In this document: positions 20,638 to 40,086 of the stretch, piece by piece
How the letters are laid out: every line of letters starts with the position of its first letter
Position numbering within the stretch: the first letter of the stretch is position 1
Assembly (NCBI GenBank): GCA_003599335.1
Contig: QZJN01000007.1
Location: 812 to 64,811 of the forward strand
Direction of reading: 5' to 3'
From: Candidatus Parcubacteria bacterium
GTDB lineage: Bacteria > Patescibacteriota > Minisyncoccia > SURF-38
Length of the DNA stretch: 64,000 bases
Notes under the pieces: model-generated
What the model was told of the DNA's origin: nothing
Database searches by the model: none
Seen by the model: only the letters and a program-made list of their open reading frames with translations
Translations under genes and position numbers: made by a program

Positions 20638-20708
20638 TGCGGGATCGTCTAATGGTAGGACACCAGCCTTTGGAGCTGGGTATCTTGGTTCGAATCCAAG
20701 TCCCGCAG
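20638..20708 (+). tRNA. tRNA-Gln (anticodon UUG)
   Basis: Cloverleaf folds by hand. Acceptor stem TGCGGGA/TCCCGCA with U1-A72. Anticodon arm CCAGC-CTTTGGA-GCTGG. TPsiC arm CTTGG-TTCGAATC-CCAAG. Discriminator G. CCA is not encoded. Confidence 0.8.
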
Positions 20709-20712
20709 CAAT

Positions 20713-22393: not shown

Positions 22394-22465
22394 TATGATT
22401 AAACTTTAGAAAATTGTAAGGTAAATCCAAACAATATTAATCAAAAGCCAAAAAGACTATCTCTT

Positions 22466-24055
22466 ATGGAGCTATCTCCTACAGATCTTCTCTCAAAAGG
22501 ATACTTTCCGGAGGAATTGCCACCACCATTTCAAACCGTGGTATTGGGACAAAAGTTTTCAAAATTAGAGAAACAGCTTTCAAAAGTTACCAAAAAATTT
22601 AGGCAAGCTCATGCAAAGTCGAGTTGCATAAAATACACCGCTCCAAAAAGAGGTTTTTCGAGACGCAACTTTAATATTCCAAATCCTTTCCACTTTATAG
22701 AGCTAGTTAGATTACTAAACGACAATAAAACATCGATTTTAAAAATTTTAAAATCATCAGAGTATTCTATTTTTCTAAAAGAAAGGCTTAGGAATGACTG
22801 GAACGAATTTGCAAAGGATAGATTTGTAAAATCACAAGACTACATTTATGAGTTGAAAACTGATATAGCTCGTTACTTTCCAACCATTTATACTCATAGT
22901 ATTTCTTGGGCTATTCACGGTAAAAAAATTGCGAAGTCTAACAAAAGTAACCCGAGCCTCTGGGGCAATGAACTAGATAAAAAGGTAAGAAACCTGCAGG
23001 ATAATCAAACCATAGGAATCCCCGTTGGCCCTCATGTTTCTAGAATAATTGCAGAGTTAATAGGTTGCGAGGTAGATAAAAAGTTGAAAGAGTGGATACT
23101 TAAAGAAAATCTCGATGTTCTTGTTTTTAGATATATTGATGACTACTTTTTATACTTTTCAGAAGAAAGTACAGGAGAAAAAATCTTAAACTCGCTTCAA
23201 TCAATTTTAGACGATTTTAACCTAGAAATTAATCACAATAAAACTGAGGTAACAAAATTTCCCTTTGGTCTAGAGCCTAAATGGGTCAGCGACTTAAGAT
23301 CATTTACCATACGCAAAAAGAACCCCGAACAAATATTCGATATCATGGATTTTTTTAGCATAGCTCTTAACTACACTAACGAACACAAAAATGAATCTAT
23401 CCTAAAATATTCTCTAATAAAACTTCGTAATACAAAAATAATTGATCGAAACTGGGATTACTTCGAAGCTTGGCTACTAAAAATTCTTTTGTATAATACC
23501 AATGTTCTGCCAGAAATACTTAGTTTATTCTTATTAAACCAAGGTAAACTAAACGCAGATAGAATAAAGCAAGCAATTGAAAAACTAATTGTAACAAGCA
23601 TCAAAAAGAAAAATAACTACGAAATCGCTTGGAGTCTCTGGATTGCTAAATCTCTAAAGATTAAATTATCTAGTCAATTAGTTAGTGGGGTGTTTCAATT
23701 AGAAGATCCGATTTCAATTTTAATTGCATTAGATTTAATCAATTCTAATCTAATTATCGGAACCACTAAAAAATATCTCAATTCTTTAGGAAATTCTTTA
23801 AGTCAAAATTCTCTTTTTAACGAATACTGGCTACTAGCTTACGAAAGTAGCATTAAAGGATGGCTAAAAATACCAAAATTAAATTTGCAGAACGACGAAT
23901 TTTATAAAACTCTATACAAAGAAAAAGTGAGTTTCTATGACAGCAAAAAACAAATTTACTATGCTCCTTACAGCAGACGAAAAAAAAGAACTGCTAAGGA
24001 AAAGAATAATTTTATTGGTTTTACCCGCATATTTAAACGTCCATCTTTTTATTGA
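22466..24055 (+). CDS. stand-alone reverse transcriptase, AbiK/Abi-P2-like (abortive-infection class)
   Basis: RT motifs: APKRGFSRRNFNIPNP (motifs 1/2), DIARYFPTIYTHSISWAIHGK (A), GIPVGPHVSRIIAELI (B') and VFRYIDDYFLYF (C, YIDD). NLEINHNKTEV follows as motif D. A C-terminal helical extension of about 250 aa follows. No maturase or endonuclease domain. Confidence 0.75.
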   Translation: MELSPTDLLSKGYFPEELPPPFQTVVLGQKFSKLEKQLSKVTKKFRQAHAKSSCIKYTAPKRGFSRRNFNIPNPFHFIELVRLLNDNKTSILKILKSSEYSIFLKERLRNDWNEFAKDRFVKSQDYIYELKTDIARYFPTIYTHSISWAIHGKKIAKSNKSNPSLWGNELDKKVRNLQDNQTIGIPVGPHVSRIIAELIGCEVDKKLKEWILKENLDVLVFRYIDDYFLYFSEESTGEKILNSLQSILDDFNLEINHNKTEVTKFPFGLEPKWVSDLRSFTIRKKNPEQIFDIMDFFSIALNYTNEHKNESILKYSLIKLRNTKIIDRNWDYFEAWLLKILLYNTNVLPEILSLFLLNQGKLNADRIKQAIEKLIVTSIKKKNNYEIAWSLWIAKSLKIKLSSQLVSGVFQLEDPISILIALDLINSNLIIGTTKKYLNSLGNSLSQNSLFNEYWLLAYESSIKGWLKIPKLNLQNDEFYKTLYKEKVSFYDSKKQIYYAPYSRRKKRTAKEKNNFIGFTRIFKRPSFY

Positions 24056-24099: not shown

Positions 24100-24465
24100 A
24101 TGATCTCCACACGCATACTTATTTTTCACACGACACTCCTTATTGGTTTTATAACTGCCTCTGTGGCTTCGTCTGTTATAACAATGGTTTTTCCAGAACT
24201 TTTGCCCGGGAAATATCTTTTGTTTGGCGTGATCCTGCTAACCGGGCTTATCCTTGGTTCCTGGTCATTATTTCGCGGATGCCCTTTCACTGTGTGGGAA
24301 AATAAATATCGCGAACGCGAACGCCCCGGCTCGGCGTATCGCGGCCCCTGCATTGATAGATATATAAAAGAATGGTTCAACGTCCGCCTGCCCGCGCGAT
24401 TGAGCACATTTATACTTCTTGGCTTTCTCATCTTCCCCGCCATAACCGGCCTACTCAATTGGTAA
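24100..24465 (+). CDS. small membrane protein, DUF2784-like
   Basis: Three TM helices with a GCPFTVWEN...R motif. GC is intermediate between the host and the island. Confidence 0.4.
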   Translation: MISTRILIFHTTLLIGFITASVASSVITMVFPELLPGKYLLFGVILLTGLILGSWSLFRGCPFTVWENKYRERERPGSAYRGPCIDRYIKEWFNVRLPARLSTFILLGFLIFPAITGLLNW

Positions 24466-24528
24466 AACACATTCTCCCTCCAAAACAAAAAGCTAAAGCC
24501 CACCAACAACCTCTCAACAACATCGTAT

Positions 24529-24544
24529 GTTAACAATTGTTAAC
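24529..24544. promoter_or_regulatory. perfect 16-bp palindrome GTTAACAATTGTTAAC (copy 3)
   Basis: Exact third copy, at the left edge of the high-GC island. Confidence 0.5.
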
Positions 24545-24641
24545 GTAAGTTTTTTATTCAGGTTTTACTTTTTGTCTCTCCTCCCTCAAAACTCCCCTTT
24601 CATCTCGCCGCAATTTCAACAAAGACTGACAAAAACAAAAA

Positions 24642-24672
24642 GAGCCAATCCCTTTCGGAACTGGCTCTTTGT
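24642..24672 (-). terminator. rho-independent terminator hairpin
   Basis: AGAGCCA...TGGCTCT stem, with T-runs on the minus strand and a weaker T-run on the plus strand. Lies directly 3' of the minus-strand island gene. Confidence 0.5.
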
Positions 24673-24693
24673 TTGAAAGACCGATGTTGGAAA

Positions 24694-25779
24694 CTAGTTG
24701 GCGCCGGCCGCGGCTGCAGCCTGGTCCATTGTTTCTTCCGGAGTTTCCGAAAGATCCAAGGGCGGTGCAGTTTCGTTCGGCCGGAGACGCCGCGTGCGCT
24801 TGCCGGAGTTGACGTGATTCAGCAGCATTTGGTAAAGGATCTCACGCGCCTTGCCACTGGCCGAAGCCAGATTGACAATGTACGGATCGGTTACCGGGAA
24901 GAGCTTGATCTTGCGGATCAAATCCCTCTCCACAAAAAACCGCTTATCACGCCAGAAATCCTGGTGCCTCGAGAACAACGTTGCTAGGCAGATCAGGAAG
25001 GTGTTGCGCAGGTACGCGGCGCCTTCGCGAATCGTCACAATGCGGATACCCCAGCACTGATCGAGTATGTCAGAGAAGGTTCGTGCGTTCTCGCGCAGAA
25101 CATTCGGGCCTGTAACCTCCATGATTTTCTGGAGGCCACGAGCCAACTCGTCAGTTTTGCTCCCGCGGCCAGGGCCAAGGTGAGAGTGCAGCGCGCCAAC
25201 CGCCTTACAGAAAGTCAAGGCAGTGATCAACTCGCCGTGCTTCATCCGCTGGCTCCAGGAAATCTTGCCGTGCATGACGAACCCGCGATCGCGAGTCGTC
25301 AAGCTGAACAAGTGAGAGACAACAGGGAACTCGTGCTGGAGATTGCGGAGCAGAATGTTGGGAGAAAGCTTTGTCCGCTCGGTGTTGAGGATGCGGAAAC
25401 GGTCCCGTTCCCACTCCTCGGTTGTATTGAAATGAACCGTGCAGCCCAGGCGTGGCGACTTGCCAGTACCCAGCTGCATCAGACGCATCGCCGCGGTCAC
25501 CCGCTGCAGACCGTCGATGATGAAAACATCGTTCTTGAGGTAGAAAGCCCCGTCGCGCTCCATAAAATCCCCTCCCCGCATCCCAAGTTCAATGTCGGGA
25601 ACGGTGCTCTTTTGGAACGCTTCGATGAGCGTGTTGATTTTGGCCAACGGCAGAACCTCGCGCTGATAGGGAGCAGTCTGCAATTGGTGCAACGAACCCG
25701 GGTCAACCTCACCTCGGAGAATAATGTCTTTCTTCTCCTCGCTGAGAGCAGCCCGTACTACCTTAACTGAATCGCGCAT
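24694..25779 (-). CDS. ParB/Srx-fold protein with DGQHR/DUF262-like motif (IIDGLQRVTA)
   Basis: 361 aa, GC-rich codon usage. IIDGLQRV resembles the DndB DGQHR and DUF262 DGQQR(LTT) ParB-like motifs. The SD (AAGGAGG) sits 11 nt upstream. Confidence 0.4.
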   Translation of the reverse strand: MRDSVKVVRAALSEEKKDIILRGEVDPGSLHQLQTAPYQREVLPLAKINTLIEAFQKSTVPDIELGMRGGDFMERDGAFYLKNDVFIIDGLQRVTAAMRLMQLGTGKSPRLGCTVHFNTTEEWERDRFRILNTERTKLSPNILLRNLQHEFPVVSHLFSLTTRDRGFVMHGKISWSQRMKHGELITALTFCKAVGALHSHLGPGRGSKTDELARGLQKIMEVTGPNVLRENARTFSDILDQCWGIRIVTIREGAAYLRNTFLICLATLFSRHQDFWRDKRFFVERDLIRKIKLFPVTDPYIVNLASASGKAREILYQMLLNHVNSGKRTRRLRPNETAPPLDLSETPEETMDQAAAAAGAN

Positions 25780-25877
25780 AAAGCGACGATCCTCCTTGTG
25801 AAGATTGGCTTTGACTCCCTTATGCCATATTGGCTGGGATGGTAAGCCAATTTTTTTATATCAAACAAAAACTAAAG

Positions 25878-25911
25878 TGTCAAGCAATTTTCTGTCTCCC
25901 GTGGCTTGACA
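25878..25911 (+). promoter_or_regulatory. inverted repeat TGTCAAGC-N18-GCTTGACA overlapping a TTGACA -35 hexamer
   Basis: Exact 8-bp inverted repeat in the divergent promoter region between the DGQHR-like gene and the three-ORF unit. Confidence 0.35.
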
Positions 25912-25959
25912 GAATTATATTTTTATACAATAATCTTTCCAGACTTTAAGGAGGTACAC

Positions 25960-26295
25960 ATGGAGGAAAAGCTCTTTTTGCTCAAGAAGAAACACAAACA
26001 CGAACTGGCGGCCGTTCCCGGAGGAGACCACCCAACCTTTGATTCCGACGAGTTCGTTGTCGGCACATCTCCCGAAGAAGTGATCGATCGGATTTTCAAT
26101 GAGGAGAAAGCCAAACGCGACGAGTGGGAACGCAAGATGGAAACCGCGGAAACCCAGGATGTTGTAGATGACCCCATCGGAACTTTTCCGCCGGTTCTCC
26201 CCGTGCGCAAAGAAGAATGGAAGGCCGAGGAAGTGAAAGTTGATGGCTACACCATCATCCTGGAAAAACAACCCGAACCCTCTCCTGCGACCTGA
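25960..26295 (+). CDS. hypothetical acidic protein (111 aa)
   Basis: Strong SD (AAGGAGG) 7 nt before the ATG. GC-rich codons. No recognisable motif. Confidence 0.45.
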   Translation: MEEKLFLLKKKHKHELAAVPGGDHPTFDSDEFVVGTSPEEVIDRIFNEEKAKRDEWERKMETAETQDVVDDPIGTFPPVLPVRKEEWKAEEVKVDGYTIILEKQPEPSPAT

Positions 26296-26326
26296 TTTAA
26301 ATCGCTCTCTGAATCTGGAGGAAACC

Positions 26327-26545
26327 ATGGAAAATCGCCAGGTTGTTTTTGTGGAAGCGATTATCAAAGACGAAGAACTCAAAGCTGGCCAAAACCCGCG
26401 CATTCGGCCAAACGAACTTCTGGAACGTGGCCTTGAAGCTCGCCGCGCCGAGGGATGGTGCGATGTTTTTGCCCTTCCCTTGCCCACGCCCGATGGTGGC
26501 CAAAAATGGGCCATCGTTTTCCACCGCCATAACCATCTTCACTAG
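26327..26545 (+). CDS. hypothetical small protein (72 aa)
   Basis: GGAGG SD upstream. Same transcription unit as the preceding ORF. Confidence 0.4.
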   Translation: MENRQVVFVEAIIKDEELKAGQNPRIRPNELLERGLEARRAEGWCDVFALPLPTPDGGQKWAIVFHRHNHLH

Positions 26546-26642
26546 CCTTCGCAGAAAAGCTCAAAGCTTAGTACGCGAGGGCTTTTCTGTTTATTGACAG
26601 GATAACACTTATATGTTAATTAAGTTTTATACAGGAGGTGTC

Positions 26643-26936
26643 ATGTTTCAGTTCTTCAAAGACTGGCGACGCAGGTGGCGGGAGAAAAAGCGGCGACGGC
26701 TTTTGGACGAACTTGCGTGGGTGGAAAGTCAAATCTCCAGCATCACGCAGGAAAACGCCCAAACCAAAAAGCTCCATACGCGCCTGGCCGAGGAAAGCGC
26801 CGTGGTTTTTGACCAGGAGAGAGACTCTCGTTTTGCGGCTCGTTCAAGCGAGCGCGCCCAGAATGCAATCCTCCTTGGCCGGTACCAACGCGAAAAAAAG
26901 CTCATTGAGCGAGAGCTCGCTTCCCTCCCCGCCTAA
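26643..26936 (+). CDS. hypothetical basic/coiled-coil protein (97 aa)
   Basis: AGGAGGTG SD. Arg/Lys-rich N-terminus followed by a heptad-like helical region. Confidence 0.45.
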   Translation: MFQFFKDWRRRWREKKRRRLLDELAWVESQISSITQENAQTKKLHTRLAEESAVVFDQERDSRFAARSSERAQNAILLGRYQREKKLIERELASLPA

Positions 26937-26951
26937 AGCACAGCAGCAAAA

Positions 26952-26993
26952 GGCCCGGACCGATCTAACCAATCGCGCCGGGCCTTTTCTTTT
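26952..26993 (+). terminator. terminator-like hairpin GGCCCGG...CCGGGCC followed by TTTTCTTTTCTT (repeat copy A)
   Basis: 7-bp GC stem with a long loop and a T-run. Closely related to the copy at 28004-28046. Confidence 0.45.
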
Positions 26994-26994
26994 C

Positions 26995-27023
26995 TTGACA
27001 TAAGTAAATTATCATTTTATTAT
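26995..27023 (+). promoter_or_regulatory. sigma70-type promoter (TTGACA, 17-nt spacer, TATTAT)
   Basis: Near-consensus hexamers 42 nt upstream of the PyrD-like gene start. Confidence 0.45.
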
Positions 27024-27064
27024 CGCAACATCCTGAAAGACGGGAAAACTACAAGGAGGAGACG

Positions 27065-27988
27065 ATGGAGATCCCATCGGCAAAGTTCGGAGCTCTTGAA
27101 TACACGCCAGCTCTTTCCAACGGCGCAGGAATGATCAAAAAGCTTGAGGATGTGCGGGAAATGGCCCTCTCGGCCGCCGGCGCCATCGTCGTCGGCTCCA
27201 TCACCCTCAAGGACAGGCCTGGCAACACAGGCAACACGTTTTGGGTCGGCCAAACCGGCTCAATCAACTCGCTTGGCATCCCCAACCCCGGCAAGGAATA
27301 CTACCGGCAAAACATCCATTTGATGGTTGGTGTCGCCCATGCTCATGGCAAGAAACTCATCGTCAACGTGGCCGGCTTCCAACCAAACGAATTTGGCGAA
27401 CTGGCCCTCTTGGCCTTTGATTGCGGGGCCGACGCGGTTGAGCTCAACTTCGGCTGCCCCAACATCTGGGACGATGGCACCCAAAAAGGCATTATCAGCT
27501 TTTACCCGGATGTTCTGGGCGAATCGCTGGAAGCCGTGAGACGAGCCGTTGGCGTTGGCTCCAACATCATCGCTAAGGTTTCCCCTTTTTCCAACCCAAT
27601 ACAACTCAAGGAAATCGGCGGCGTGATCGTGAGCTCAGGAATCGTTTCGGCCATTACGGCCATCAACACCTTCCCCAACGCTTACGGCGAGTACGAAAAC
27701 GGCCGGCCGGTCATTGATCCGGGCGGAGGACTTGGCGGCTTTGCCGGCGCCGGGCTCAAACACATTGCCCTTGGTCAAGTGAAGCAGTGGCGCGCCCTGC
27801 TGCCTCCCGAAATTGCCATCATTGGGGTTGGCGGTATTTCCAGGGGCAAGGACATGGCCGAGTATTTCCGTCATGGCAAGGTTGCGGCCGTTCAGGTCGT
27901 TACGGCGCTTTTGCGCAAGGGCCACATGGACCCCAACGCCTTGAGCACCATTCTCATGGAATACGCCGAGCTGCCGGATGCAGCGTGA
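27065..27988 (+). CDS. dihydroorotate dehydrogenase-family (PyrD-like) FMN TIM-barrel oxidoreductase
   Basis: NSLGIPNPG, ELNFGCPN and C-terminal IIGVGGISRGKDMAEYFRHGKVAAVQVVTALL match class-1 DHOD signatures. SD AAGGAGGAGAC. Confidence 0.65.
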   Translation: MEIPSAKFGALEYTPALSNGAGMIKKLEDVREMALSAAGAIVVGSITLKDRPGNTGNTFWVGQTGSINSLGIPNPGKEYYRQNIHLMVGVAHAHGKKLIVNVAGFQPNEFGELALLAFDCGADAVELNFGCPNIWDDGTQKGIISFYPDVLGESLEAVRRAVGVGSNIIAKVSPFSNPIQLKEIGGVIVSSGIVSAITAINTFPNAYGEYENGRPVIDPGGGLGGFAGAGLKHIALGQVKQWRALLPPEIAIIGVGGISRGKDMAEYFRHGKVAAVQVVTALLRKGHMDPNALSTILMEYAELPDAA

Positions 27989-28003
27989 AGTTCCACAACT
28001 AGA

Positions 28004-28046
28004 AGGCCCGGAGCCAAAATTAACTTTTGGCGCCGGGCCTTTTCTT
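28004..28046 (+). terminator. terminator-like hairpin GGCCCGG...CCGGGCC followed by TTTTCTTTTT (repeat copy B)
   Basis: Same stem, and a partly conserved loop, as the copy at 26952-26993. It marks the right edge of the GC island. Confidence 0.45.
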
Positions 28047-28071
28047 TTTATTTAATTTTCGTACAATAACA

Positions 28072-37687: not shown

Positions 37688-38818
37688 TTATTTATAAATA
37701 CGCTTTAAAAGAGGATTAATACGACTAACAACCTCATAACTTATTGTATCAATTTTTTCCGCCAATTCTTCCGCGGAAATAATTTCATTCAAATCTTTTC
37801 CTATTAAAGTGGCTGTTTTTTCCAACCCGGCCTTTGAAATATTTGTAACATCAACCATAATCATATTCATACAAACCCTACCTAAAACTTTAGCTCTTTT
37901 TCCAGAAATTAAAACCTCCCCAACCGAAGATAACCCTCTATCATAACCATCCCAATAACCAACGGGTAAAACTGCCACCTTTGAATCTTTTTTTACTTTT
38001 TCAGTGAGATTATACCCCACAAACGAACCTTTCCTTAATTTTTTTACTTGAGCTATCTTAACTTTCCAACTCAAAGTTGGTTTTAAAAACAATCCATTTT
38101 TTCTTTCAACAAATATTTTAGTCTCTTCTGATGGCCAAAGACCGTATAAACTAATACCCGGCCTTATAAGATTAAAATGACTTTGTGGAAAAACAAGAGC
38201 CGCCGCAGAAGCTGCGCAATGGATAAATTTGGGATAGAAACCTCTGGCTTTAAAAATATTTACGGCTTTTTCCAGATTATTAAGTTGTTTTTTTGCATAT
38301 ACCAAATCCGAAGCGTCTTCTGCGTTTGCGAAATGGGTAGATAAACCCTCCAAAGATATGTTTTTATTTTTAACAAACTCTTCTAAAAAATCAGCAATAT
38401 CTTCAAACGCTATTCCCTGCCTGTTCGTCCCTGTCTCAATTTTTAGATGAACCGGAAAAATAACATTTTTTTTCTTGGCAATTCTGCCAAATTTTATCAA
38501 AGACTCTAAATTATATATAACGGCGCGAAGATTATATTCAAAAAGATACTTTAAATCTGAAATCGGAACATAACCCAAAATAAGAATAGGTTGTTTTATC
38601 TTTGCAAGACGCAGTGCAACGGCTTCCTCCATAGAATCAACCCCAAACCAATTTGCTCCGCCTTTTAGAAAAATCTTAGCCGCACCAACAAGTCCATGAC
38701 CATAAGCATTGCTTTTTACTATAGCCATAAGCTCGCTTTTTGGAGCGAGCTTTCTAAAACTTTTAACATTATGAAGTAAGGCTTTAATATCAACCTCTAC
38801 CCACGAACGAGTTTCCAT
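37688..38818 (-). CDS. alr: alanine racemase
   Basis: AIVKSNAYGHG PLP-lysine motif. Confidence 0.85.
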   Translation of the reverse strand: METRSWVEVDIKALLHNVKSFRKLAPKSELMAIVKSNAYGHGLVGAAKIFLKGGANWFGVDSMEEAVALRLAKIKQPILILGYVPISDLKYLFEYNLRAVIYNLESLIKFGRIAKKKNVIFPVHLKIETGTNRQGIAFEDIADFLEEFVKNKNISLEGLSTHFANAEDASDLVYAKKQLNNLEKAVNIFKARGFYPKFIHCAASAAALVFPQSHFNLIRPGISLYGLWPSEETKIFVERKNGLFLKPTLSWKVKIAQVKKLRKGSFVGYNLTEKVKKDSKVAVLPVGYWDGYDRGLSSVGEVLISGKRAKVLGRVCMNMIMVDVTNISKAGLEKTATLIGKDLNEIISAEELAEKIDTISYEVVSRINPLLKRIYK

Positions 38819-38823
38819 TTCTT

Positions 38824-40086
38824 TTATCTAGTCTTAATCTCTTTAAAAGAAAGATAGGAATGCAGAGCTTTTGGTATTTTTATTGAGCCGTCTTTTTGTT
38901 GATAGTTTTCAATAATTGCAATAAGCATTCTCCCAATAGCAAAAGCTGTGCCATTAAGCATGTGAACAAGTTTATTTTCCTTTCCGTCTTTGTATTTAAT
39001 GTTTAATCTTCGCGATTGAAAATCTGTTGTATTGCTACAAGAATGAGTTTCACGATAAACGTTTTGCCCAGGCATCCAAGCCTCAATGTCAAAAGTCGCG
39101 GCAGATGGGGCCGATAGATCGGCCGTACAAAGCTCAACAACACGATAAGGAATTTCAAGTTTTTGCATTAACTCCTCTTCACAGGATAAGAGTAGTTTAT
39201 GTTCTTTTTCAGAATCTTCTGATTTTGAAAAAATAAACATCTCAACCTTATCAAACTGATGCACCCGCAAAATTCCCTTGGTGTCTTTACCGTATGAGCC
39301 AGCTTCTCTACGAAAGCAGGTTGAAAATGCAACATAGCGCAATGGCAAATGTTTCTGATCTAAAACCTCGCCAGCATGCATGGGACCAATGCTTTGTTCT
39401 GAAGTTCCAACAAGATAAGAATTGTCTTTTTCAAGATAATACCGTTCGGCTCTATCTTTTTCTGTATCTACATATCCCATCGCCTGCATCATTTCTTCTT
39501 TGATAATAACCGGCGGCACAACCGGCATAAAACCTTTTTTTGAAAGCTCGTTCATTGCAAATTGAACCAAGGCAAACTCAAGTTGTACGAGTTCACTTTT
39601 TATATAACCAAAACGAGAGCCGGAAACCTTCCCAGCCCGTTCAATGTCTATAAAATTAGGCTCGGTTAGCGCCAGATAATCCTCTGGTTTAAATTCAAAA
39701 TCCGGCTTTTTACCCCATTCACGAATAACTTTATTATCTGTCTCGCTTTTACCAATAGGAACAGAGTCTAAAGGAATATTTGGAATTTTCTTCAGTCCTC
39801 TTAAGGCTTCGGTGTATTTTTTATATTGATCCTCATTATATTTAATATCATTTTTAAGCTTCCCGGCTTGCTCTAACATTTCTTTTGTTTTTTTATTTCC
39901 TGCCTTAGCAATTTCTTCTGAAACTTTGTTTAATTGCGCACGTTTATCTTCAAGCTTCTTTTTTAGCGCTCTTTCTTGTTGCAGCACCTCCTTTATCTCA
40001 ACGATGTCAATATCTTTAATCCCCCGGTTTTTTAAAGCGGTTTTTACTTTATCTACATCTTCTAAGATTAAATCTTTATTAATCAT
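38824..40086 (-). CDS. serS: seryl-tRNA synthetase
   Basis: N-terminal coiled-coil arm and class II motifs (FRREAGSYGKDTKGILRVHQFDKVE). Confidence 0.9.
   Translation of the reverse strand: MINKDLILEDVDKVKTALKNRGIKDIDIVEIKEVLQQERALKKKLEDKRAQLNKVSEEIAKAGNKKTKEMLEQAGKLKNDIKYNEDQYKKYTEALRGLKKIPNIPLDSVPIGKSETDNKVIREWGKKPDFEFKPEDYLALTEPNFIDIERAGKVSGSRFGYIKSELVQLEFALVQFAMNELSKKGFMPVVPPVIIKEEMMQAMGYVDTEKDRAERYYLEKDNSYLVGTSEQSIGPMHAGEVLDQKHLPLRYVAFSTCFRREAGSYGKDTKGILRVHQFDKVEMFIFSKSEDSEKEHKLLLSCEEELMQKLEIPYRVVELCTADLSAPSAATFDIEAWMPGQNVYRETHSCSNTTDFQSRRLNIKYKDGKENKLVHMLNGTAFAIGRMLIAIIENYQQKDGSIKIPKALHSYLSFKEIKTR

What the first reader, a model, noticed from the sequence alone, without database searches (positions are those of the whole stretch)
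22466..24055. Stand-alone AbiK/Abi-P2-like reverse transcriptase in a streamlined, CPR-like genome
The 529-aa ORF carries a complete set of RT motifs: PKRGFSRRNFNIPNP, D..YFPTIYTHSISWAIHGK, GIPVGPHVSRIIAELI, YIDD and NKTEV. My recollection of lactococcal AbiK (...LYTHSIPW..DGK, GIPTGNLLSRIITEL, Y-DDF, NDNKTKV) matches these blocks closely. There is no maturase X, D/En or other accessory catalytic domain. About 250 aa of helical C-terminus follows, as in Abi-class RTs that polymerise untemplated, protein-primed DNA. The 72-nt upstream gap cannot hold a retron msr/msd, and no DGR template/variable repeat pair is visible. The gene lies 1.7 kb downstream of tRNA-Gln and immediately left of a foreign-composition island. 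Abortive-infection RTs have not, to my knowledge, been described in ultra-small episymbiotic bacteria. A phage-defence RT in an organism with a genome this small would be notable.
Basis: partly seen in the sequence, partly recalled or inferred. Interest (0 to 1): 0.75.

Follow-up and report, generated by a model that had tools for sequence, protein, structure and literature searches.

The report
DRT6-type defence reverse transcriptase in Parcubacteria
The gene is an intact, stand-alone reverse transcriptase of the known anti-phage DRT6 (UG12) family, a relative of AbiK, sitting in an ultra-small Parcubacteria genome: an ordinary member of a known family in a slightly unusual host.

Summary
It is not AbiK or Abi-P2 itself. 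It belongs to the neighbouring DRT6/UG12 family of single-gene defence reverse transcriptases. The best PADLOC model is Drt6 (526 bits, full length). The best solved structure by sequence and by fold is the hexameric DRT6 cryo-EM structure 9wy8 (E 2e-68; TM 0.83/0.89). DRT4, AbiK and Abi-P2 are progressively more distant; retron and group II RTs are far. The catalytic Asp133 and Y223-IDD are intact. There is no flanking ncRNA and no partner gene conserved across related loci. Published work shows that DRT6 makes template-independent DNA covalently attached to the protein and acts by abortive infection; I infer the same here. The contig is a deposited Parcubacteria MAG, where the protein is already annotated as "RNA-directed DNA polymerase". 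Its closest relatives form a small CPR sub-clade (Parcubacteria-group and Saccharibacteria; 99.5% bootstrap). UG/Abi RTs (UG38) were already reported in Parcubacteria, and CPR defence systems have been surveyed, so the surprise is modest. One side lead: a C-terminal tail tyrosine (Y529) is conserved across the family, whereas DRT4's priming Tyr125 is not. Verdict: new member of a known kind; interest about 0.3.

The parts
22466..24055 (+). Complete DRT6/UG12-family reverse transcriptase gene (529 aa plus stop codon)
   Evidence: ORF. PADLOC Drt6 scores 526 bits over aa 6-510. PDB 9wy8 (hexameric DRT6) matches at E 1.9e-68 over aa 7-494 and with Foldseek TM 0.83/0.89.
22757..23254 (+). RT fingers/palm core (aa 98-263), including first catalytic Asp133 (22862-22864), motif QTIGIPVGP (aa 181-189) and NKTEV (aa 258-262)
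   Evidence: Pfam RVT_1 matches aa 98-263. D133, Q181, G184, P186, G188 and K259 are invariant in the 30-sequence family alignment.
23132..23143 (+). Catalytic Y223-I-D225-D226 (YxDD) motif
   Evidence: It aligns with YVDD of DRT6, whose D223A/D224A mutant is inactive (PMC12783706). D225 and D226 are invariant.
23327..23920 (+). All-helical C-terminal (alpha-repeat-like) domain, aa 288-485
   Evidence: AF2 secondary structure with pLDDT above 90. It superposes on the DRT6, DRT4 and AbiK C-terminal domains in the full-length Foldseek matches.
23930..23941 (+). Invariant S-F-Y491-D motif closing the folded domain
   Evidence: F490 and Y491 are invariant and D492 is nearly invariant (>=90%). The column holds Tyr in 99% and 96% of the two family sets.
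23972..24052 (+). Disordered, strongly basic C-terminal tail (aa 503-529) ending in Tyr529 (codon 24050-24052); candidate priming residue (inferred)
   Evidence: pLDDT is below 50. The 48 residues after the regex-defined anchor at aa 481 (which include the SFYD motif) carry net charge +11. 77 of 120 relatives end in Tyr and 102 of 120 have a Tyr within the last five residues. Y529 aligns with Y536 of the characterised DRT6, a column with Tyr in 84% and 100% of the two sets.
22394..22465 (+). 72-nt AT-rich upstream intergenic region; no structured RNA
   Evidence: Rfam E-value scan of 19-30 kb finds only tRNA-Gln. The fold z-scores are -0.39 on the + strand and -0.51 on the - strand.
20638..20709 (+). 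Context only: tRNA-Gln(TTG)
   Evidence: ARAGORN and Rfam. Its 3' 23 nt are not repeated anywhere in the window, so there is no att-like duplication.
24100..28000 (.). Context only: roughly 4-kb high-GC insertion abutting the RT stop codon. It holds a ParB-N-like 361-aa ORF (24694-25779, -), small unknown ORFs and a dihydroorotate-dehydrogenase-like gene (27065-27988, +).
   Evidence: Gene GC is 0.47-0.58 and GC3 0.51-0.70, against about 0.26-0.48 for other genes. Pfam DHO_dh. ParB-like assignment.

Best explanation
The gene encodes a functional-looking member of the DRT6 (UG12) family of single-gene defence-associated reverse transcriptases. This family is a close relative of DRT4/UG15 and a more distant relative of AbiK and Abi-P2. 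Shown here: family assignment by profile, sequence and fold; intact catalytic residues; no ncRNA; no conserved partner gene; residence in a CPR (Parcubacteria) contig; and membership of a small CPR-specific sub-clade. Inferred from published DRT6/DRT4 biochemistry: the protein oligomerises (DRT6 is a hexamer) and uses a protein tyrosine as primer. It polymerises dNTPs without a template into ssDNA that stays covalently attached to the enzyme. In uninfected cells this DNA is kept low by a 3'-5' exonuclease. During infection a phage ssDNA-binding protein protects the 3' end, ssDNA accumulates, and the cell dies or stops growing before phage release (abortive infection). My own inference is that the priming residue is the family-conserved tail tyrosine (Y529, the last residue) or the invariant Y491. 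It is not the DRT4-type Tyr125 position, which is Trp112 here.
For: PADLOC: Drt6 PDLC03748 scores 526 bits full-length, and PDLC02177 and PDLC02179 score 511 and 470. A control shows that the bona fide DRT6 (P0129) hits the same three models (613, 513 and 763 bits). The bona fide DRT4 instead hits PDLC02180, 03752 and 02178 (655, 541 and 346 bits) and scores only 277 on Drt6. PDB by sequence: 9wy8 at 1.9e-68, against UG15/DRT4 at 2e-27, AbiK at 1.6e-24 and Abi-P2 at 1.5e-19. Fold: 9wy8 'hexameric DRT6' gives TM 0.83/0.89 and rmsd 2.8 A; DRT4 gives 0.74-0.80, AbiK 0.70, Abi-P2 about 0.6, and group II and retron RTs below 0.4. Catalytic and motif residues are invariant. There is no Rfam hit and no stable fold in the flanks. 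No neighbouring gene is shared among the four closest loci. Published function: UG12=DRT6 protects E. coli against T5 and ZL-19, and an RT active-site mutation abolishes this (PMC9226505). DRT6 acts by abortive infection, is oligomeric, makes template-independent DNA covalently bound to the protein, is activated by T5 ORF55 and is toxic in sbcB knockout cells (PMC12783706). Host: NCBI labels every neighbouring protein looked up on the contig as Parcubacteria. NJ tree: window + P0002 + P0003 form a clade with 99.5% bootstrap. P0002's contig is CPR by its ThrRS. P0003 is from a Saccharibacteria MAG.
Against: Identity to the characterised DRT6 is only 31%, so the biochemical behaviour is extrapolated. 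The gene is not in a recognisable defence island: no other PADLOC system was found in the 64 kb. The tail is basic (+11), whereas the characterised DRT6 tail is strongly acidic (-29), so regulation may differ. The exonuclease (SbcB-type) and phage trigger that the model needs are unknown for CPR. The taxonomic label comes from a binned MAG. No activity, oligomeric state or phage phenotype was or could be tested here.
Confidence: 0.78

Rival explanations
1. It is a member of the AbiK or Abi-P2 family proper.
For: There is real homology. PADLOC AbiK scores 192 bits and AbiP2 138 bits. PDB AbiK matches at E 1.6e-24 and Abi-P2 at 1.5e-19. The overall architecture is the same, with TM 0.70 and about 0.6.
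Against: The UG12/DRT6 models score 2.7-3.8 times higher. DRT6 is much closer by sequence (E 1.9e-68) and by fold (TM 0.83/0.89). The Foldseek alignments give only 19-22% identity to AbiK and Abi-P2.
Confidence: 0.03
2. It is a DRT4 (UG15) enzyme that primes from the DRT4-type tyrosine.
For: Two PADLOC models named 'Drt4' score 511 and 470 bits. NCBIfam Drt4 is the best NCBIfam hit.
Against: A control shows that those two 'Drt4' models are hit best by authentic DRT6, not by authentic DRT4. NCBIfam Drt4 scores 248.8 bits, far below its 450-bit cutoff. DRT4's priming Tyr125 aligns with Trp112 here, and that column is Tyr in only 9% and 1% of family members. DRT4 structures match less well than DRT6.
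Confidence: 0.04
3. It is a DRT6-family protein that no longer acts in defence in this host. It could be a recently acquired passenger with no function, or it could be co-opted for something else in an episymbiont.
For: It stands alone among housekeeping genes with no other defence system nearby. It has the lowest GC of any gene in the window (0.318), which suggests acquisition. CPR biology is poorly known.
Against: The reading frame is intact, with all invariant family residues including the catalytic ones. A well-supported CPR sub-clade at 46-57% identity in different genomic contexts implies maintenance under selection and mobility, which is typical of defence genes. In the Saccharibacteria locus it lies between serine recombinases and next to an HNH gene.
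Confidence: 0.12
4. It is a retron, group II intron or DGR reverse transcriptase whose RNA or repeat partner was overlooked.
For: There are weak sub-threshold hits to group II (43 bits against a cutoff of 300) and retron St85 (37 bits against 235) NCBIfam models, which reflect the shared RT core.
Against: No Rfam family other than tRNA is found in 19-30 kb at E<=1. The flanks are 72 and 44 nt with no stable fold. There are no template/variable repeat pairs, only repeats of 28 nt or less. There is no maturase or endonuclease domain. TM to these RTs is below 0.4.
Confidence: 0.01

Closest known systems
DRT6 / UG12 (Sphingopyxis sp. PHR10625.1; PDB 9wy8, hexamer)
   Same: Same full-length architecture: N-terminal segment, RT core and helical C-terminal domain. 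TM is 0.83/0.89. It gives the best profile and sequence match. The YxDD and motif residues are shared. Both are single-gene systems without ncRNA. The conserved SFYD motif and tail tyrosine column are shared.
   Different: Only 31% identical. The window protein's tail is short and basic and ends at the conserved Tyr. The reference has an acidic tail with DEEY536FD followed by a 28-aa poly-Asp/Glu extension. The host is a CPR bacterium rather than a proteobacterium. It belongs to a separate, well-supported sub-clade.
DRT4 / UG15 (E. coli; PDB 9vdo, 9vdv, 21ou, 9l9s)
   Same: It is the same class of single-gene, hexameric RT that makes untemplated, protein-primed ssDNA. The fold is similar (TM 0.74-0.80). 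Published work suggests it shares a trigger (T5 ORF55) with DRT6 (PMC12783706).
   Different: 25% identity. The NCBIfam Drt4 score is below its cutoff. The DRT4 priming Tyr125 is not conserved; it is W112 here.
AbiK (Lactococcus; PDB 7r06, 7r07, 7z0z) and Abi-P2 (PDB 7r08)
   Same: RT core plus helical C-terminal domain. They carry out protein-primed, template-independent DNA synthesis and act by abortive infection.
   Different: More distant: TM 0.70 and about 0.6, with 19-22% identity. I recall from Figiel et al. 2022 that AbiK primes from N-terminal Tyr44 (PDB 7z0z is the 'Y44F variant'). Whether that position is conserved here was not checked; the only highly conserved N-terminal Tyr (Y13) is Phe in the reference DRT6.
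UG38 RTs of Parcubacteria/Nealsonbacteria (Mestre et al. 2022, PMC9226505)
   Same: They are UG/Abi-superfamily RTs previously reported in CPR genomes.
   Different: It is a different group, placed in Mestre's class 2. The window protein's strong matches are to UG12-type models. UG38 is not among its best 25 PADLOC families, nor among the E<=1e-40 hits of its three closest relatives.

Membership tests
DRT6 / UG12 | Best and full-length match to UG12-type sequence profiles | tested here: met
   PADLOC Drt6 PDLC03748 scores 526 bits, aa 6-510 against model positions 5-496 of 511. The score pattern across the Drt6 and 'Drt4' models equals that of authentic DRT6 and differs from authentic DRT4 (control).
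DRT6 / UG12 | Fold: RT core plus helical C-terminal domain superposable on the DRT6 structure | tested here: met
   The AF2 model has pLDDT 89. The top Foldseek hit is 9wy8_A, with TM 0.83/0.89 and rmsd 2.8 A over about 495 residues.
DRT6 / UG12 | Intact RT catalytic residues (motif-A Asp, YxDD) | tested here: met
   D133 and Y223-I-D225-D226 are present and lie in invariant columns. They align with DRT6 YVDD.
DRT6 / UG12 | Single-gene system: no ncRNA and no obligatory partner gene | tested here: met
   No Rfam hit. The flanks are unstructured. The neighbours differ in all four closest loci.
DRT6 / UG12 | Phylogenetic placement inside UG12 relative to all other UG/Abi groups | tested here: inconclusive
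   An NJ tree with only DRT4 as outgroup groups it with the family. The position of the CPR clade relative to the other family members is unresolved (22.5% bootstrap). UG30, UG14 and UG31 were compared only through profile scores (271, 195 and 164 bits).
DRT6 / UG12 | Hexameric assembly | not testable with these tools
   Only monomer prediction is available. The hexamer is known for 9wy8.
DRT6 / UG12 | Template-independent DNA synthesis covalently attached to the protein | not testable with these tools
   Shown for Sphingopyxis DRT6 in PMC12783706. It needs biochemistry for this protein.
DRT6 / UG12 | Anti-phage protection by abortive infection, dependent on RT catalysis | not testable with these tools
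   Shown for UG12 in PMC9226505 and PMC12783706. No CPR host-phage system is available.
DRT4 / UG15 | NCBIfam Drt4 equivalog score at or above the 450-bit cutoff | tested here: not met
   248.8 bits.
DRT4 / UG15 | Conserved priming Tyr125 | tested here: not met
   It aligns with W112. The column is Tyr in 9% and 1% of the two UG12 sets.
AbiK / Abi-P2 | Best profile match to AbiK or Abi-P2 models | tested here: not met
   AbiK scores 192 and 182 bits and AbiP2 138 bits, against Drt6 at 526 bits.
Retron | Adjacent msr/msd ncRNA | tested here: not met
   The gaps are 72 and 44 nt, with no Rfam hit and fold z-scores of about 0.
Group II intron RT | Maturase (X) domain and intron RNA | tested here: not met
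   Only RVT_1 is found in Pfam. TIGR04416 scores 43 bits against a cutoff of 300. There is no intron RNA in Rfam.
DGR | Template/variable repeat pair near the RT | tested here: not met
   There are no repeats longer than 28 nt in 20-29.5 kb.

The most novel reading that the evidence does not exclude
The DRT6/UG12 family may prime DNA synthesis from a tyrosine at the end of a flexible C-terminal tail (Y529 here, Y536 in the characterised DRT6). That site differs from DRT4 (Tyr125) and AbiK (Tyr44) and is reminiscent of DRT9's C-terminal tyrosines. The CPR sub-clade has replaced the acidic tail of proteobacterial DRT6 with a short, strongly basic tail, which would imply different autoregulation or trigger sensing in ultra-small episymbionts. 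The held literature describes the DRT6 mechanism as unresolved (PMC13314766). The DRT6 structure paper (BBRC 2025) could not be read, so this may already be known.
Probability: 0.3. Interest if true: 0.45.

Novelty: new member of a known kind. Interest (0 to 1): 0.3.

Why it matters
It adds DRT6-type abortive-infection reverse transcriptases to the defence repertoire of CPR/Patescibacteria. It also shows a small lineage of them circulating among Parcubacteria-group and Saccharibacteria genomes. In the Saccharibacteria locus the gene sits between serine recombinases. An altruistic suicide system is a mildly interesting choice for an organism with a genome of about 1 Mb that lives attached to a host cell. 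It also raises the question of which exonuclease and which phage protein would control it there. The family-wide tail tyrosine gives a directly testable candidate for the unidentified DRT6 priming residue. None of this changes current understanding of the family.

Tried and rejected
1. A single-protein scan of GTDB genomes found nothing. The profile scan worked.

2. An exact look-up of the RT in the contig index failed, so the window's own record could not be fetched.

3. The supplementary tables of Mestre et al. are not held, so I could not check whether RJQ14034.1 is already listed under a UG group.

4. The DRT6 structure paper (BBRC 791:152955) is not held.

5. Literature searches combining Patescibacteria with DRT or abortive infection returned nothing.

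6. Cluster look-ups of neighbours of P0002 and P0004 gave no organism names. P0002's phylum was then inferred from its ThrRS. P0004's taxon remains unknown.

7. I looked for a tRNA-Gln att-type duplication that would mark an integrated element and found none.

8. No promoters or terminators above shuffle expectation were found around the RT.

9. I considered that the PADLOC 'Drt4' hits meant DRT4 membership, and rejected this after the control.

10. I considered the adjacent 361-aa ORF as a defence partner. It has no PADLOC hit. Its only matches are weak: a DGQHR hit, a ParB-like PHROG hit and a ParB N-domain fold with low TM. It is absent from the other RT loci, so I do not treat it as part of the system.
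Full report
**1.

- The ORF at 22466-24055 (+) runs from an ATG to a TGA stop and encodes 529 aa.
- Pfam finds one RVT_1 domain (aa 98-263, E 1.3e-10) and nothing else.
- tRNA-Gln lies at 20638-20709.
- The upstream gap is 72 nt.
- A high-GC block starts right after the stop codon and ends near 28.0 kb.
- The exact protein is in NCBI as RJQ14034.1, 'RNA-directed DNA polymerase [Candidatus Parcubacteria bacterium]', on a 66-kb MAG contig. Its neighbours carry the same organism label.
- The other 64 ORFs of the window encode housekeeping functions such as tRNA synthetases, MreB, FtsW, PBPs and ribosomal proteins. No other defence system is recognised by PADLOC.

**2. Family assignment**

PADLOC gives Drt6 (UG12) as the best model: 526 bits, end to end. 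Two models named 'Drt4' follow at 511 and 470 bits. Then there is a large drop to further Drt4 models (234-282), UG30 (271), UG14 (195), AbiK (192) and Abi-P2 (138).

Because of the ambiguous names I ran a control.
- I recovered the experimentally characterised DRT6 as P0129. It is 564 aa and 100% identical to the non-MBP part of PDB 9wy8. Its YVDD falls at 221-224, matching the published D223A/D224A mutant.
- I scanned P0129 together with a DRT4 fragment taken from PDB 21ou.
- Authentic DRT6 hits PDLC02179, 03748 and 02177 (763, 613 and 513 bits).
- Authentic DRT4 hits PDLC02180, 03752 and 02178 (655, 541 and 346 bits) and only 277 bits on Drt6.
- The window protein and its three closest relatives show the DRT6 pattern.

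Other evidence agrees.
- NCBIfam's Drt4 equivalog scores 249 bits against a 450-bit cutoff.
- Against PDB sequences the order is DRT6 (1.9e-68), then DRT4/UG15 (2e-27), AbiK (1.6e-24), Abi-P2 (1.5e-19) and Drt3b.
- An AF2 model built on 30 homologues is confident (pLDDT 89.1, pTM 0.88).
- Foldseek ranks the 'hexameric DRT6' structure first (TM 0.83/0.89, rmsd 2.8 A). DRT4 follows at 0.74-0.80, AbiK at 0.70 and Abi-P2 at about 0.6. Group II, retron, DGR and DRT9 RTs are all below 0.4.

The protein is therefore a DRT6/UG12-family member.

**3. Integrity and architecture**

- Residues invariant in the family alignment include D133, Y142-T-H, Q181, G184, P186, G188, R222, D225 and D226 (YIDD) and K259. 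All are present here.
- The C-terminal half (aa 288-485) is helical and well predicted. The last 27 residues are disordered.
- An Rfam E-value scan of 19-30 kb finds only the tRNA.
- The 72-nt upstream and 44-nt downstream gaps fold no better than shuffles, with z-scores of -0.39, +0.25 and -0.51.
- No repeats longer than 28 nt exist nearby.
- The neighbours of the RT differ in the four closest loci: EamA and a small membrane ORF here; unknown ORFs and an M29 peptidase in L001; DUF3761 and small ORFs in L084; HNH and serine recombinases in L004.

This fits the published single-gene nature of DRT6.

**4. Likely mechanism (inferred from the literature)**

- UG12 was named DRT6 after it protected E. 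coli against T5 and ZL-19 in an RT-dependent way (PMC9226505).
- Wang et al. (PMC12783706) showed the following for DRT6:
  - it acts by abortive infection;
  - it is oligomeric;
  - it synthesises DNA without template, with the product covalently bound to the protein;
  - it becomes toxic with T5 ORF55 or in sbcB-knockout cells.
- For DRT4 the same paper showed random ssDNA primed from Tyr125.
- 9wy8 is a hexamer.
- A 2026 review still lists the DRT6 mechanism as unresolved (PMC13314766).

I therefore propose the same scheme for the Parcubacteria enzyme. The enzyme makes protein-primed, untemplated ssDNA constitutively. An exonuclease removes it. A phage ssDNA-binding protein stabilises it during infection, and the accumulated ssDNA is toxic. 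None of these steps was tested here.

**5. A family feature found on the way**

- In a MAFFT alignment of about 230 family members plus DRT4, the DRT4 priming Tyr125 aligns with Trp112 of the window protein. That column is Tyr in only 9% and 1% of the two family sets.
- Four columns are Tyr in at least 84% of both sets:
  - Y142 and Y459, which are also conserved in DRT4 and so are probably structural;
  - Y491, in an invariant SFYD motif;
  - the tail tyrosine Y529, which aligns with Y536 (DEEYFD) of the characterised DRT6.
- Among the 120 closest relatives, 77 end exactly in Tyr and 102 have a Tyr in the last five residues.
- In a tail-restricted count, 89 of 105 relatives have a Tyr in the last five residues, against about 25 expected from tail composition. 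Related sequences are not independent, so this is indicative only.
- In the proteobacterial clade, 65 of 71 tails carry [DE][DE]Y[FLW][DEN].
- Tails of the CPR clade are basic (+11, +9, +7 and +5), against -29 in the reference.
- DRT9 uses C-terminal tail tyrosines as primers (PMC12483538). The tail Tyr, or else Y491, is therefore a reasonable candidate for the DRT6 priming residue. This is inference only.

**6. Host and distribution**

- A profile scan of one genome per GTDB species found 232 genomes with relatives. In the 80 best loci listed, these are mostly Bacteroidota, cyanobacteria, Paenibacillus/Bacillus, Acidobacteriota and several methanogenic archaea.
- The nearest is a Saccharibacteria MAG at 49% identity.
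- The closest metagenomic relative, P0002 (56-57%), sits on a contig whose ThrRS matches Patescibacteria, Jorgensenbacteria and Parcubacteria best, at 62-67%.
- An NJ tree with 200 bootstraps groups the window protein, P0002 and P0003 at 99.5%. P0004 (taxon unknown) joins them at 83%. The clade's position within the family is unresolved.
- About 17 full-length family members lie on IMG/VR viral contigs, all at 35% identity or less to the window protein.
- The RT gene has the lowest GC in the window (0.318). Its GC3 (0.283) is within the host range.

**7. Novelty**

- UG/Abi RTs (UG38) were already reported in Parcubacteria and Nealsonbacteria (PMC9226505).
- A 2025 survey found a high density of defence systems in 3,004 CPR MAGs (PMC12259885).
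- The protein is already annotated as an RT.
- I found no explicit report of DRT6/UG12 in CPR in the held library.

The finding is a new member, and a small CPR sub-clade, of a known and mechanistically studied family. Interest is about 0.3.

**8. The adjacent island**

- The block at about 24.1-28.0 kb has GC3 of 0.51-0.70 and returns to host-like composition on both sides. It therefore looks like an insertion rather than a chimeric contig end.
- Its largest ORF (361 aa, 24694-25779, -) has:
  - no PADLOC hit and no Pfam hit at E<=0.01;
  - a weak DGQHR hit;
  - a weak PHROG ParB-like hit;
  - a confident AF2 model (pLDDT 92) whose N-terminal part resembles ParB/Noc N-domains (E about 6e-4, low TM).
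- The family has about 450 clusters at 50% identity.
- Its best relative lies in a phage-like run of small ORFs next to an AEP primase-polymerase.
- I treat the island as a separate acquisition, not as part of the RT system.

Noticed in passing
window 24100-28000: A roughly 4-kb high-GC insertion (gene GC3 0.51-0.70, against about 0.26-0.48 for other genes) lies directly after the RT stop codon. It carries a 361-aa ParB-N-like/DGQHR-like ORF (24694-25779, -), whose best relative sits in a phage-like gene block. It also carries small unknown ORFs and a dihydroorotate-dehydrogenase-like gene (27065-27988).
   Followed up: partly
window 23972-24052 (aa 503-529); P0129 aa 493-564: The UG12/DRT6 family has a disordered C-terminal tail with a conserved tyrosine. 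This is the last residue in most relatives of the window protein, and lies in DEEYFD in the proteobacterial clade. DRT4's priming Tyr125 is not conserved. CPR-clade tails are basic, whereas the reference DRT6 tail is poly-acidic.
   Followed up: partly
PADLOC models PDLC02177 and PDLC02179: These two models are labelled 'Drt4' but are hit best by authentic DRT6 (763 and 513 bits) and poorly by authentic DRT4 (222 and 242 bits). Annotation based on them would mislabel UG12 proteins as DRT4.
   Followed up: yes
L004 254-2116 and 7166-8812; L004 2117-2766: In the Saccharibacteria MAG the RT homologue is flanked by serine recombinase genes and an HNH endonuclease, which suggests a mobile element. 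A 650-nt stretch with no ORF of 70 aa or more precedes the RT there. It was not analysed for RNA structure.
   Followed up: no
L084 4127-4984: The P0004 homologue lies 3 kb from an Mrr_cat/NA-iREase1 restriction-endonuclease-like gene. This is the only one of the four closest loci with a defence-like neighbour.
   Followed up: no
window 26966-26993 and 28021-28048: A 28-nt GC-rich direct repeat (86% identical; GCGCCGGGCCTTTTCTTTT core) brackets the dihydroorotate-dehydrogenase-like gene. The upstream copy is the 3' arm of a hairpin (inverted repeat 26948-26988). It could be a terminator pair or a cassette boundary.
   Followed up: no
L025, L027, L028, L031, L032, L034: DRT6-family RTs at 35-38% identity occur in methanogen (Methanolinea, Methanobacterium, Methanoregulaceae, Methanotrichaceae) and Bathyarchaeia MAGs, so the family crosses the bacteria-archaea boundary.
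   Followed up: no
window 37688-40086 vs L001 227-2858: The alanine racemase and seryl-tRNA synthetase gene pair is adjacent in both the window and the P0002 contig (41% and 52% protein identity). This is consistent with both being related CPR genomes, although the RT sits at different positions in the two.
   Followed up: no
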